64,000 nucleotides of DNA, taken from NCBI GenBank assembly GCA_964195545.1, contig CAXMQQ010000005.1, positions 278 to 64,277 of the forward strand, written 5' to 3'. Positions within the stretch are counted from its first letter, which is position 1. The number at the start of each line of letters is the position of its first letter. Positions 27,291-29,605 of the stretch are shown one piece after another. Below the pieces are notes generated by a model. That model searched no databases. It was given only the letters and a program-made list of their open reading frames with translations, and was not told where the DNA came from. The DNA comes from an uncultured Acidimicrobiia bacterium (lineage in GTDB: Bacteria > Actinomycetota > Acidimicrobiia > Spongiisociales > UBA5794). The position numbers and the translations under genes are program-made.

Positions 27291-27321
27291 CGGCGAGGGG
27301 ACGCTCCGGCGGTGGGTTGCG

Positions 27322-27522
27322 TCAGTGAACGATGCCGGCGGCATGCTGCCAGCAATCGGTGCAGAGGTAGCCGGCGTCGTGGAAGCGGGCGTCCTGCTCG
27401 AAAACCGTTATATGACACATGCTGCAGGTCCCGGCAACGAAATCGCGAGCGGCGTCCTGGAACGGTCCGTCTGACACGGCAAGATCCGAGACGAGGACGG
27501 TTCTGCTGGTTCCTTGTTTCAC
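27322..27522 (-). CDS. small zinc-ribbon-like protein (66 aa)
   Basis: CSMC ... CTDC (CxxC x n CxxC). GTG start 42 nt downstream of the Rdx gene on the same strand. Confidence 0.4.
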   Translation of the reverse strand: MKQGTSRTVLVSDLAVSDGPFQDAARDFVAGTCSMCHITVFEQDARFHDAGYLCTDCWQHAAGIVH

Positions 27523-27563
27523 TCGCTGAAGGCTATCGGGGAACCAGACTCATCGACTGACCA

Positions 27564-27809
27564 CTAGGTCAGGATGTCCCTCAGGGGCACCGCTATGTCC
27601 TCATACTCGGCGTGGCGACCGGTCTCCGCTTTCGAATAGATAAGACGGTCGTCGAGCATGACCTCAAACCGCCCGCCGCTCGACGGGATCAGGATAAGGC
27701 GGTCAATGATTCGCTCGAACTCGTCGAGCAGCTGATCGGCCGTGCGCACGGCACGGTTCCGATAGCCTCAAACGGCGCAGTATTCAATGCTGAGATTCAT
27801 GACGATCAT
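27564..27809 (-). CDS. Rdx/SelW-like selenoprotein; in-frame TGA at 27770..27768 read as Sec (CxxU)
   Basis: The track ORF 27564..27749 is only the C-terminal part. Extending upstream in frame gives M(IVM)NLSIEYCAV-TGA-GYRNRAVRTADQLL...GGRFEV...IYSK. ATG is at 27809 or 27800. CAVU aligns with the Rdx family CxxC/U redox motif. Confidence 0.8.
27735..27763 (-). other. candidate bacterial SECIS hairpin for the Rdx gene
   Basis: Minus-strand ATCGG-aa-CCGTGC [CGTGC] GCACGG-CCGAT starts 8 nt after the U of UGA. The apical loop lies 21-25 nt downstream. Confidence 0.55.
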
Positions 27810-27925
27810 CGTAGTCGGCATCGCGTACGCTATTGGACCATCATCTCCGGATCATGTGGGTGACCCAGAGTTTGCCGCCGGCGTCGACCCACACGCCCGA
27901 ACCGGCCTCCGTCAACGTCCTGTGA

Positions 27926-29605
27926 TCAATCGCAAACGGCGCCACGTTCGGCGGATCCGACCAACTTGGCGTACTTTCCGAGGGCGCCGGTTGGGTAGCG
28001 AGCCGCAGGTGCCTCCCAGGAGCCGCGCCTGGCCTCCATTTCGTCTTCGTCGATCAGAAGGTCGAGTCGCCGCGCCGGTAGATCGACACGGATCCGATCG
28101 CCCTCGTGCACAAGACCCATCGGTCCACCCTTTGCGGCTTCCGGAGCCACGTGTCCGATGCAAAGGCCCGTCGTCCCGCCGGAGAATCGGCCATCGGTGA
28201 TCAGAAGCACGTCCTTGCCGAGGCCTGCGCCCTTGATCGCCGCGGTGATCGCAAGCATCTCCCTCATCCCCGGACCTCCGGCCGGGCCCTCGTATCGGAT
28301 CACCACAACGTCCCCGGCATGAAGATCGTGGGCCCACAACGCCTCGAGCGCATGCTGTTCGTCGTCGAAGACCCTGGCGGTTCCCTCAAAGACATCGAGG
28401 TCGATACCGGCGATCTTCACGACGGCGCCGCCCGGGGCGAGCGAGCCACGGAGGATGGCGATGCCACCCTCTTCGGCGACCGGCTCTGCGAACGCTCGGA
28501 CCACGTCCTGCTGCTCCGGGAACACGACCGTCTCGAGGTTCTCAGCCATCGTCCCGCCGGTCACGGTCAGCGCATCCCCATTGATGAGCCCCTCGTCGTA
28601 GAGGGCACGCAGCACAACGGGAACCCCGCCGATCCGATCGAGATCCACCATGTGATAGCGACCGAACGGCTTGAGATCACCGACATGAGGTGTTCGCCGG
28701 CTTATCCGATCGAAGTCTTCGAGCGTGAGGTCGACGCGCGCTTCGTGGGCGAGAGCGAGAAGGTGCAACACAGCGTTCGTCGACCCTCCGAGCGCCATTA
28801 CCACGGTGACGGCGTTCTCGAACGCCTCCCTCGTCATGATGTCTCTCGGGCGGATGCCGGCCCGGAGCAACTCCATGGCCGCTTCACCGGACTGTCGGGC
28901 GTAGTCGTCGAGGCGCTTCGAGATGGCGGGGACCGAGGCGCTACCGGGGAGCGACATGCCGAGGGCCTCACCCACCGAAGCCATTGTGTTCGCAGTGAAC
29001 ATCCCGGCACACGAGCCAACGCCGGGACAGGCAGCCTGTTCGATGCGTAGCAATTGAGAATCGTCAATTCGACCCTCGGAGTGGGCGCCGATGCCCTCGA
29101 AGACATCCACGATTGAGATGTCGACACCATCGAGCTTGCCTGGAAGGGACGACCCTCCGTATAGGAACACCGACGGGAGATTGTGCCGCGCAGCGGCCAT
29201 GAGCATCCCAGGGAGCGACTTGTCGCAACCGGCGATCGAGACCATCGCGTCGAACCTCTCTGCGTGCATGACGAGCTCAACGGAGTCTGCGATGACCTCC
29301 CTGGAGACGAGCGAGGCCCGCATGCCCTCGTGTCCCATCGAGATTCCGTCGGAGACGGCAATGGTGGCGAAGACGAGACCCACACCGCCCGCCTCGTTCA
29401 CGCCCTCTCTGGCTCGTGCAGAGAGCTTCGGACCGGTCAGATTGCAGGGGGTGACTTCATTGCCGGCGCTCACGACACCGACCTGCGCCTTGATGAAATC
29501 GTTCTCGCCAAGGCCGACGGCGCGCAGCATCGCTCTGGCACCGGCCTTGGCAGGGCCGTCGGTCACGTCCTGGGAATGGATCTTGACGGGGGTCTCGTTA
29601 GACAT
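27926..29605 (-). CDS. ilvD: dihydroxy-acid dehydratase
   Basis: Full-length IlvD with CDKSLPGM and [12 protein letters not shown] Fe-S motifs. Start re-set to ATG 29605 ([11 protein letters not shown]). Confidence 0.93.

What the first reader, a model, noticed from the sequence alone, without database searches (positions are those of the whole stretch)
27564..27809. Hidden Rdx/SelW-like selenoprotein (CAV-U) missed by ORF calling, with a SECIS-like hairpin
The 61-aa track ORF (27564..27749) is a truncated piece. Extending upstream in frame on the minus strand gives ATG(27809 or 27800)...NLSIEYCAV-TGA-GYRNRAVRTADQLLDEFE...SSGGRFEVMLDDRLIYSKAETGRHAEYEDI. This is a complete Rdx-family fold with its N-terminal CxxC/U redox motif, where U is encoded by the TGA at 27770..27768.

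Immediately downstream is an 11-bp interrupted stem (ATCGG-aa-CCGTGC / GCACGG-CCGAT) with a 5-nt loop CGUGC, 21-25 nt from the UGA. Rdx proteins are a known Sec/Cys family, so this is strong evidence that the organism decodes selenocysteine. It also supports the DUF3179 call. A CxxC...CxxC mini-protein (27322..27522) follows 42 nt downstream on the same strand and may be co-transcribed.
Basis: partly seen in the sequence, partly recalled or inferred. Interest (0 to 1): 0.6.

Follow-up and report, generated by a model that had tools for sequence, protein, structure and literature searches.

The report
Truncated SelW-like selenoprotein gene
A small redox-protein gene that gene finders cut to a 61-residue stub is really a 78-residue member of the long-known bacterial selenoprotein W-like family, with an internal UGA read as selenocysteine; the call is solid but the finding is ordinary.

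Summary
On the minus strand, one frame runs from ATG 27800 to TAG 27564 (78 codons) with a single in-frame TGA at 27770..27768, codon 11. This gives MNLSIEYCAV-U-GYRNRAV.

The read-through product is a full Rdx/SelW-like domain. It scores 68 bits on Pfam PF10262, against 40 bits for the stub. The AlphaFold model has pLDDT 96.5 and TM 0.9 to bacterial SelW-related crystal structures.

The genome (an Acidimicrobiia MAG from marine sediment) has selA, selB, a Sec-containing selD and a tRNA-Sec. All 48 homologs found in 61 relatives keep exactly one TGA at this position.

A 17-nt hairpin (6-bp stem, loop NGUNN) starts 11 nt after the UGA. It pairs fully in 30 of 30 relatives, with frozen synonymous sites and one compensatory change.

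Three details need correcting:
- The start is ATG 27800, not 27809.
- Only the upper stem is conserved; the lower AUCGG/CCGAU stem is specific to the genus.
- The GTG "start" of the stub is Val18, inside the hairpin loop.

The family has been catalogued since 2005, so this is a new member of a known kind. The mild extra is a conserved CxxC...CxxC mini-gene directly downstream.

The parts
27564..27800 (-). SelW-like/Rdx selenoprotein gene: 78 codons plus TAG stop, Sec at codon 11
   Evidence: Pfam Rdx scores 68 bits. The start codon aligned with 27800 is ATG or GTG in 30/30 relatives, and in-frame stops lie just upstream in four of them.
27768..27770 (-). In-frame UGA, read as selenocysteine (CAV-U motif)
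   Evidence: All 48 homologs found in 61 relatives, and 45 of 53 homologs in a phylum-wide sample, have exactly one TGA here. The other 8 have none, and all 8, once fetched, carry Cys at this position. The second Cys of CxxC in the solved Cys-form structures aligns with it.
27740..27756 (-). Conserved 17-nt SECIS core hairpin: CCGUGC / loop CGUGC / GCACGG, starting 11 nt after the UGA
   Evidence: It is 100% paired in 30/30 relatives, with one U-A to C-G compensatory change and G-C/G-U alternation. The Arg16 codon is CGT in 29/30, while other conserved Arg codons vary freely. G and U at loop positions 2-3 are invariant.
27730..27767 (-). Extended lower stem (GGCU-AUCGG..CCGAU-AGCU) around the core hairpin; not conserved outside the genus
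   Evidence: It is in the minimum-free-energy fold. The lower pairs are broken in 28-64% of distinct relatives.
27747..27749 (-). GTG taken by gene callers as the start of the 61-aa stub; really the Val18 codon inside the SECIS loop
   Evidence: It is GTT or GTC in three relatives, so it cannot be a conserved start.
27808..27813 (-). -10-like hexamer TACGAT (TANNNT), 7 nt before ATG 27800; suggests a leaderless mRNA
   Evidence: TANNNT lies 6-8 nt upstream of the start in 30/30 relatives, at 7 nt in 26. The motif and its position match mapped actinobacterial promoters (PMC3898074). This is inferred, not shown.
27322..27522 (-). Conserved 66-aa CxxC...CxxC mini-protein gene directly downstream, with its own TAGCCT -10-like box at 27535..27530
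   Evidence: It lies on the same strand and downstream in every relative where both genes share a contig: 25 within 150 nt and 5 more within 2 kb.

Best explanation
This is a genuine selenoprotein gene of the bacterial SelW-like (Rdx) family. It encodes a 78-residue thioredoxin-like protein with the redox motif Cys8-Ala-Val-Sec11, placed between strand 1 and helix 1.

The likely mechanism is as follows. The ribosome reaches UGA at codon 11. The 17-nt hairpin that starts 11 nt further on, with G and U exposed in its 5-nt loop, is bound by the C-terminal domains of SelB carrying Sec-tRNA(Sec). Selenocysteine is inserted instead of termination. The protein then acts as a small selenol/thiol oxidoreductase, forming a reversible Cys8-Sec11 selenenylsulfide.

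Shown here:
- Family membership and fold.
- Conservation of the TGA.
- Conservation of the hairpin at the RNA level.
- A complete Sec machinery in the genome.

Inferred:
- Actual Sec insertion and SelB binding.
- The redox role and its substrate, which are unknown for the whole bacterial family.
- Transcription as a leaderless mRNA from a TANNNT promoter 7 nt upstream of the ATG.
For: - **Family scores.** Pfam Rdx gives 68 bits for the read-through product against 39.7 for the stub, with the match starting at profile position 2. TIGR02174 CXXU_selWTH gives 53.1 bits against a cut-off of 34.2.
- **Sec machinery.** selA and selB are adjacent on contig 84, at 376.6 and 296.4 bits, both over their cut-offs. 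selD scores 389 bits and has its own Sec codon in SGUACK. The tRNA-Sec has anticodon TCA.
- **TGA conservation.** All 48 homologs in 61 relatives of the same order have exactly one in-frame TGA, down to 38% identity. In a phylum sample, 45 of 53 have it.
- **Coding upstream of the TGA.** The codons before it are conserved as protein with synonymous variation. For example, Ser4 is AGC, AGT or TCG.
- **Hairpin.** The stem pairs in 30/30, with one compensatory change and an invariant loop GU. Arg16 is CGT in 29/30, while Arg44 and Arg74 use six codons each. A comparable hairpin is found in 80/85 Sec forms against 1/8 Cys forms.
- **Structure.** The AlphaFold model has pLDDT 96.5. TM is 0.89-0.92 and rmsd 1.1 A to 2FA8, 2OBK, 3DEX and 2P0G.
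- **TGA as a normal stop.** TGA closes 33 of 52 long frames in the window, including ilvD just upstream. This is therefore context-dependent recoding, not a variant genetic code.
- **Published SECIS rules.** These are 16-37 nt from UGA to the apical loop (PMC10778597), a G in the apical loop (PMC1088965), and in E. coli a 17-nt upper stem-loop 11 nt from the UGA with G23/U24 (PMC8659212).
Against: - There is no direct evidence of selenium incorporation or of translation past the UGA. No ribosome profiling, proteomics or isolate exists for this organism, which is a metagenome-assembled genome.
- The hairpin alone is not unusually stable for this composition (z = -1.7).
- Covariation is thin: one compensatory pair. 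The overall covariation score does not exceed shuffles when the non-conserved lower stem is included.
- It lacks the bulged U17 of the E. coli element.
- It scores below the cut-off of the NF041051 equivalog model (75.7 against 88).
- Metatranscriptome contigs from relatives extend about 110 nt upstream of the ATG. This does not fit a strictly leaderless transcript.
Confidence: 0.93

Rival explanations
1. The TGA is an ordinary stop. On this reading the locus holds a 10-codon upstream mini-ORF and a separate 61-aa Rdx fragment that initiates at GTG 27749, as public annotation has it.
For: Every database entry for this clade is the 61-aa form. The GTG is present in 27 of 30 relatives. TGA is the commonest stop codon in this genome.
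Against: - The 61-aa form lacks strand 1, the whole CxxU loop and the start of helix 1 of a fold that otherwise models at pLDDT 96.5.
- The ten upstream codons are conserved as protein in frame with the rest across the order.
- The Val18 codon is GTT or GTC in three relatives.
- Database entries are automatic calls that cannot read UGA as Sec. Two entries that used a TGA=Trp code recover the full length.
Confidence: 0.03
2. The gene is a decaying pseudogene of a Cys-type Rdx gene, in which TGC mutated to TGA.
For: TGC to TGA is a single-base change, and Cys forms exist in the phylum.
Against: The TGA sits at the same codon in all 48 homologs found in the order and in 45 of 53 across the phylum. 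The frame is otherwise intact, under purifying selection, and followed by a conserved hairpin. A pseudogene would not persist in this way.
Confidence: 0.01
3. The UGA is recoded, but to something other than Sec: near-cognate Trp or Cys read-through, without SelB.
For: Two public gene calls translate it as W. Direct chemistry is untested.
Against: - Those two calls are an artefact of the gene caller's choice of code on contigs of about 550 nt.
- The genome has the full Sec pathway.
- The residue is the redox-active position that is Cys in homologs.
- A SECIS-type hairpin accompanies the TGA forms (80 of 85) but only 1 of 8 Cys forms.
Confidence: 0.03

Closest known systems
Prokaryotic SelW-like selenoproteins (Pfam PF10262 Rdx; NCBIfam TIGR02174 CXXU_selWTH), catalogued by Zhang, Fomenko and Gladyshev 2005 (PMC1088965) as the most abundant selenoprotein family of the Sargasso Sea
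   Same: It has the CxxU motif at the same position, a similar size (about 75-90 aa), the thioredoxin-like Rdx fold and an in-ORF SECIS hairpin just after the UGA with a G in a small apical loop. It also comes from a marine setting. HMM scores are above the curated cut-offs.
   Different: It belongs to an Acidimicrobiia lineage whose members are stored publicly only as 61-aa stubs. It is paired with a conserved downstream CxxC...CxxC mini-gene, and it probably has a leaderless promoter.
Cys-type bacterial SelW-related proteins with solved structures: Atu0228 (2FA8), SAV_2001 (3DEX), V. cholerae VcR75 (2P0G), P. fluorescens 2OBK
   Same: The fold matches at TM 0.89-0.92 and rmsd 1.1 A, and the profile E-value reaches 1e-19. 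Their Y-C-x-x-C aligns with Y-C-A-V-U here.
   Different: They have Cys in place of Sec and lack the SECIS hairpin. They carry W/R-W-L after the motif rather than G-Y-R, and identity is only 25-35%. None has a known function.
E. coli fdhF SECIS element (upper 17-nt stem-loop, 11 nt from UGA, U17 bulge, G23/U24 in the loop; PMC8659212 citing Liu et al. 1998)
   Same: The 17-nt stem-loop occupies nt 15-31 counted from the U of UGA, with an 11-nt spacer and invariant adjacent G and U in the apical loop.
   Different: There is no bulged U. The loop has 5 nt rather than 4, and the GU sits at nt 22-23 rather than 23-24. The lower stem is not conserved. In sister clades of the same protein family the hairpin sits 5 nt further downstream, with loop GGUCU.
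Mammalian selenoprotein W (2NPB) and MIEN1 (2LJK)
   Same: The Rdx fold and the CxxU/CxxC position are shared.
   Different: The relationship is distant (E 4.5e-6, TM about 0.7). The eukaryotic SECIS lies in the 3' UTR and is of a different type.

Membership tests
Rdx / SelW-like (PF10262, TIGR02174) | Profile score above the curated cut-off over the whole domain | tested here: met
   PF10262 scores 68 bits against a cut-off of 22.6, covering profile positions 2-69 of 74. TIGR02174 scores 53.1 against 34.2.
Rdx / SelW-like (PF10262, TIGR02174) | CxxC/CxxU redox motif at the end of strand 1, before helix 1 | tested here: met
   C8-A-V-U11. Strand 1 is residues 2-8 and helix 1 starts at residue 14. 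Both positions are invariant in 39 homologs.
Rdx / SelW-like (PF10262, TIGR02174) | Thioredoxin-like beta-alpha-beta-beta-beta-alpha fold | tested here: met
   The AF2 model has pLDDT 96.5. Foldseek gives TM 0.89-0.92 to 2FA8, 2OBK, 3DEX and 2P0G.
Rdx / SelW-like (PF10262, TIGR02174) | Thiol/selenol oxidoreductase activity | not testable with these tools
   This needs purified protein. The function of the bacterial family is itself unknown (PMC1088965).
NF041051 SelTWH_Campy equivalog | Score above the equivalog cut-off (88 bits) | tested here: not met
   It scores 75.7 bits. It is a relative, not a member of that narrow equivalog.
Bacterial SECIS element | Stem-loop inside the ORF with 16-37 nt between the UGA and the apical loop | tested here: met
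   There are 17 nt (11-nt spacer plus 6-nt arm) between the UGA and the loop. The rule is from PMC10778597.
Bacterial SECIS element | Small apical loop with a conserved G (GU in the E. coli type) | tested here: met
   The loop is CGUGC. G and U at loop positions 2-3 are invariant in 30 relatives. The rules are from PMC1088965 and PMC8659212.
Bacterial SECIS element | Structure conserved in orthologs beyond what the protein requires | tested here: met
   The stem is 100% paired in 30/30 with one compensatory change. Synonymous sites are frozen, with Arg16 CGT in 29/30. Only 1 of 8 Cys forms carries such a hairpin. Covariation proper is sparse.
Bacterial SECIS element | Binding by SelB and dependence of UGA read-through on the hairpin | not testable with these tools
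   This needs a gel shift or reporter assay.
Selenocysteine-decoding trait | selA, selB, selD and tRNA-Sec (selC) present in the same genome | tested here: met
   All four are over their curated cut-offs. SelB matches the model full length (positions 2-580 of 581), and the tRNA-Sec has anticodon TCA.
Selenocysteine-decoding trait | Selenium actually present in the protein | not testable with these tools
   This needs 75Se labelling or mass spectrometry.

The most novel reading that the evidence does not exclude
The SelW-like selenoprotein and the 66-aa CxxC...CxxC zinc-knuckle-like protein encoded directly downstream may form a dedicated two-protein module in this Acidimicrobiia family. The mini-protein would be the redox substrate or partner of the Cys-Sec site, for example through zinc release or disulfide control of its four invariant cysteines.

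The two genes stay side by side on the same strand in every one of about 30 genomes where both share a contig, across at least 10 genera. Each has its own leaderless-type -10 box. If this holds, it would give a first concrete partner for a bacterial protein family whose function has been open for twenty years.
Probability: 0.2. Interest if true: 0.45.

Novelty: new member of a known kind. Interest (0 to 1): 0.2.

Why it matters
The practical value is in annotation. In this marine-sediment Acidimicrobiia lineage every public protein entry for the gene is a 61-residue stub that lacks the active site. Selenoproteome counts and redox inventories for these abundant sediment bacteria are therefore too low.

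The gene, the Sec-containing selD and the DUF3179 gene in the same window together show that the organism uses selenium. The false start codon lies inside the SECIS loop, which shows neatly why gene callers fail here in a systematic way.

Biologically the family is already well known, so the gene itself teaches nothing new. The conserved downstream mini-gene is the only lead towards function.

Tried and rejected
- **Rfam.** A scan of 27300..27950 at permissive thresholds found nothing relevant.
- **Promoter and terminator consensus scan.** It found neither between ilvD, the SelW-like gene and the mini-gene. The sigma-70 consensus does not suit this phylum.
- **RNA evidence.** No run holds this organism's transcript. 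Three runs labelled RNA-Seq (two metatranscriptomic, one filed as metagenomic) hold contigs of relatives less than 90% alike that cover the gene and about 110 nt upstream. They show the region is probably transcribed in relatives. They give no direction, no transcription start and nothing about translation. One is a 12-kb contig that may be DNA.
- **Free energy as a discriminator.** It does not separate Sec forms from Cys forms: mean minimum free energy is -15.2 against -13.4 kcal/mol. I therefore used a motif-based test instead.
It shows no covariation above shuffles, because its lower half is not conserved. Only the upper 6 pairs were kept.
- **The mini-protein.** Pfam, NCBIfam, PDB profile and Foldseek searches gave only generic zinc-finger noise.
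- **A variant genetic code (TGA = Trp).** I considered and rejected it.

Full report
**1. What is in the sequence**

On the minus strand, a single frame is open from upstream of 27821 to the TAG at 27566..27564. It is interrupted only by TGA at 27770..27768. With that codon read through, the frame gives MPTTMIVMNLSIEYCAV-U-GYRNRAVRTADQLLDEFE...RDILT. The 61-aa ORF listed by mechanical ORF calling (27564..27749, start GTG) is the C-terminal part of this frame.

**2. Family and fold**

- The read-through product matches Pfam Rdx (PF10262) at 68 bits, from profile position 2. The stub alone reaches 39.7 bits and starts at profile position 19.
- NCBIfam TIGR02174 (CXXU_selWTH) scores 53.1 bits against a cut-off of 34.2. 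The narrower equivalog NF041051 scores 75.7, below its cut-off of 88.
- A profile of 39 homologs hits the solved Cys-type bacterial SelW-related proteins 2FA8, 3DEX, 2P0G, 2OKA, 2OJL and 2OBK at E-values from 1e-19 to 1e-13. It also hits MIEN1 and mouse SelW. The second Cys of their Y-C-x-x-C aligns with the TGA position.
- AlphaFold2 on that alignment gives pLDDT 96.5. Strand 1 is residues 2-8 and helix 1 runs from residue 14. Foldseek gives TM 0.89-0.92 at 1.1 A rmsd to the same crystal structures.
- The 61-aa stub would lack strand 1, the redox loop and the start of helix 1.

**3. Sec machinery**

The window's genome has 2.08 Mb in 91 contigs and is about 84% complete.
- selA (376.6 bits) and selB (296.4 bits, matching the model full length) are adjacent on contig 84.
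- selD scores 389 bits on contig 57 and has its own in-frame TGA in the motif S-G-U-A-C-K.
- A tRNA-Sec (59.4 bits, above the gathering score) has anticodon TCA according to ARAGORN.
- TGA is also the commonest ordinary stop. It closes 33 of 52 long open frames in the window, including ilvD immediately upstream. The recoding is therefore local, not a variant genetic code.

**4. Conservation of the TGA**

- In 61 relatives of the same order, 48 have a homolog, and all 48 have exactly one in-frame TGA, down to 38% identity.
- In an even sample of 201 genomes of the phylum, 53 have a homolog. Of these, 45 have the TGA and 8 have none. The 8, once fetched, carry Cys (CxxC) at this position.
- A pattern scan of GTDB genomes found Sec forms in Acidimicrobiia, Caldilineaceae, Gemmatimonadota, Marinimicrobia, Verrucomicrobiales and Robertmurraya.
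- The ten codons before the TGA are conserved as protein (M-x-[LI]-S-I-E-Y-C-[AV]-x) with synonymous variation. For example, Ser4 uses AGC, AGT and TCG.

**5. The start codon**

The codon aligned with ATG 27800 is ATG or GTG in 30 of 30 relatives. Sequences further upstream are unrelated, and four relatives have in-frame stops there. The protein is therefore 78 aa with Sec at residue 11. ATG 27809 and ATG 27821 are not the start.

A TANNNT hexamer (here TACGAT, 27813..27808) lies 6-8 nt upstream of the start in 30/30 relatives, and at exactly 7 nt in 26. This is the position and form of the actinobacterial -10 element mapped in M. tuberculosis, where leaderless transcripts are common (PMC3898074). 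I infer a leaderless mRNA.

That inference has a caveat. Metatranscriptome contigs from relatives less than 90% alike extend about 110 nt upstream of the ATG. Read-through from ilvD, or an additional upstream start, is therefore not excluded.

**6. The hairpin**

- Counting the U of UGA as 1, nt 15-31 form CCGUGC / CGUGC / GCACGG (27756..27740). That is an 11-nt spacer followed by a 17-nt stem-loop.
- In an alignment of 30 relatives, all six pairs form in every sequence. One pair alternates G-C and G-U, and one shows a U-A to C-G double change.
- The G and U at loop positions 2-3 are invariant.
- The invariant Arg16 uses CGT in 29 of 30 sequences. The single CGC is the compensated case. Other conserved Arg codons (44, 52, 74) use five or six codons each. 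This is selection on the RNA, not on the protein.
With it included, the structure shows no covariation above shuffles.
- Among 85 distinct Sec-form sequences from all the loci fetched, 80 have a stem of at least 5 bp closing a 3-7-nt loop that contains GU, with the loop starting 16-23 nt after the UGA. The shuffle expectation is 11%. Only one of eight Cys forms has such a hairpin.
- In sister clades the hairpin sits 5 nt further downstream, with loop GGUCU.
- These features match the published rules: 16-37 nt from the UGA to the apical loop (PMC10778597) and a small apical loop with a conserved G (PMC1088965). In E. coli fdhF the upper 17-nt stem-loop lies 11 nt from the UGA with G23/U24 (PMC8659212). 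The bulged U17 of E. coli is absent here.
- The GTG that gene callers use as the stub's start (27749..27747) is the Val18 codon, and it supplies the conserved G-U of the loop. It is GTT or GTC in three relatives.
- Rfam has no matching family.

**7. Public annotation and organism**

All 46 database relatives of this clade are stubs of 55-61 aa, apart from two entries of 80-82 aa from contigs of about 550 nt that translate the TGA as W. Source names include "Rdx family protein", "selenoprotein W-related protein" and "predicted Rdx family selenoprotein".

The nearest genomes are Acidimicrobiia MAGs. The DNA is found in marine-sediment metagenomes.

**8. The downstream mini-gene**

- The ORF at 27322..27522 encodes 66 aa. 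C33, C36, C54 and C57 are invariant, as is an N-terminal K-x-G-T-x-x-x-V-L-V-x-D-L motif.
- It is conserved as protein in 36 of 61 relatives.
- Wherever it shares a contig with the SelW-like gene it lies downstream on the same strand. This holds within 150 nt in 25 genomes and within 2 kb in 5 more, covering at least 10 genera of the family (coordinates).
- It has its own TANNNT (TAGCCT, 27535..27530) 7 nt before its GTG, and this is conserved in the genus.
- No terminator-like site separates the two genes.
- It matches no Pfam, NCBIfam or PDB family. Its model (pLDDT 74) resembles only generic zinc knuckles.

**9. Verdict**

The gene belongs to the SelW-like family, described as a bacterial selenoprotein family and as the most abundant one in the Sargasso Sea in 2005 (PMC1088965).

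It is a new, mis-annotated member of a known kind. Many equivalent cases have already been logged in this scan. Interest is low. The only lead beyond the ordinary is the conserved pairing with the CxxC...CxxC mini-gene.

Noticed in passing
window 27322-27535 (minus strand): A conserved 66-aa CxxC...CxxC protein of no known family always lies just downstream of the SelW-like gene in this Acidimicrobiia family. It has its own TANNNT box 7 nt before its GTG start.
   Followed up: partly
window 27747-27749: The GTG that gene callers use as the start of the 61-aa stub is the Val18 codon, which forms the conserved G-U of the SECIS loop. The RNA signal itself creates the false start.
   Followed up: yes
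L009 (G000 contig 57, 10397-11326): This genome's selenophosphate synthetase SelD is itself a selenoprotein, with TGA in S-G-U-A-C-K. selA and selB are adjacent on contig 84.
   Followed up: partly
L120-L148 versus L019-L048: Within the same protein family the SECIS hairpin has two registers. In this order the loop is CGUGM and starts 18 nt after the UGA. In other Actinomycetota the loop is GGUCU and starts 23 nt after it. The element has moved by 5 nt relative to the conserved R-A-V peptide.
   Followed up: partly
L075-L114 (other Acidimicrobiia): There is a second, longer SelW-like subfamily of about 88 aa (motif Y-C-V-P-U-[DN]-Y-S, then Y-Q-H and G-V-F-D-V). It also has Sec, with stem GCGC(C)/GCGC. 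This window's genome has only the short type (one match).
   Followed up: no
P0044, P0045 (public entries, contigs of about 550 nt): Two public protein entries of this family carry W at the Sec position. This is evidently because the gene caller chose a TGA=Trp code for short contigs.
   Followed up: no
window 27801-27925: The 125-nt spacer between the ilvD stop (TGA 27928..27926) and the SelW-like start is similar enough in relatives for metatranscriptome contigs to align along it. I did not examine what it holds.
   Followed up: no
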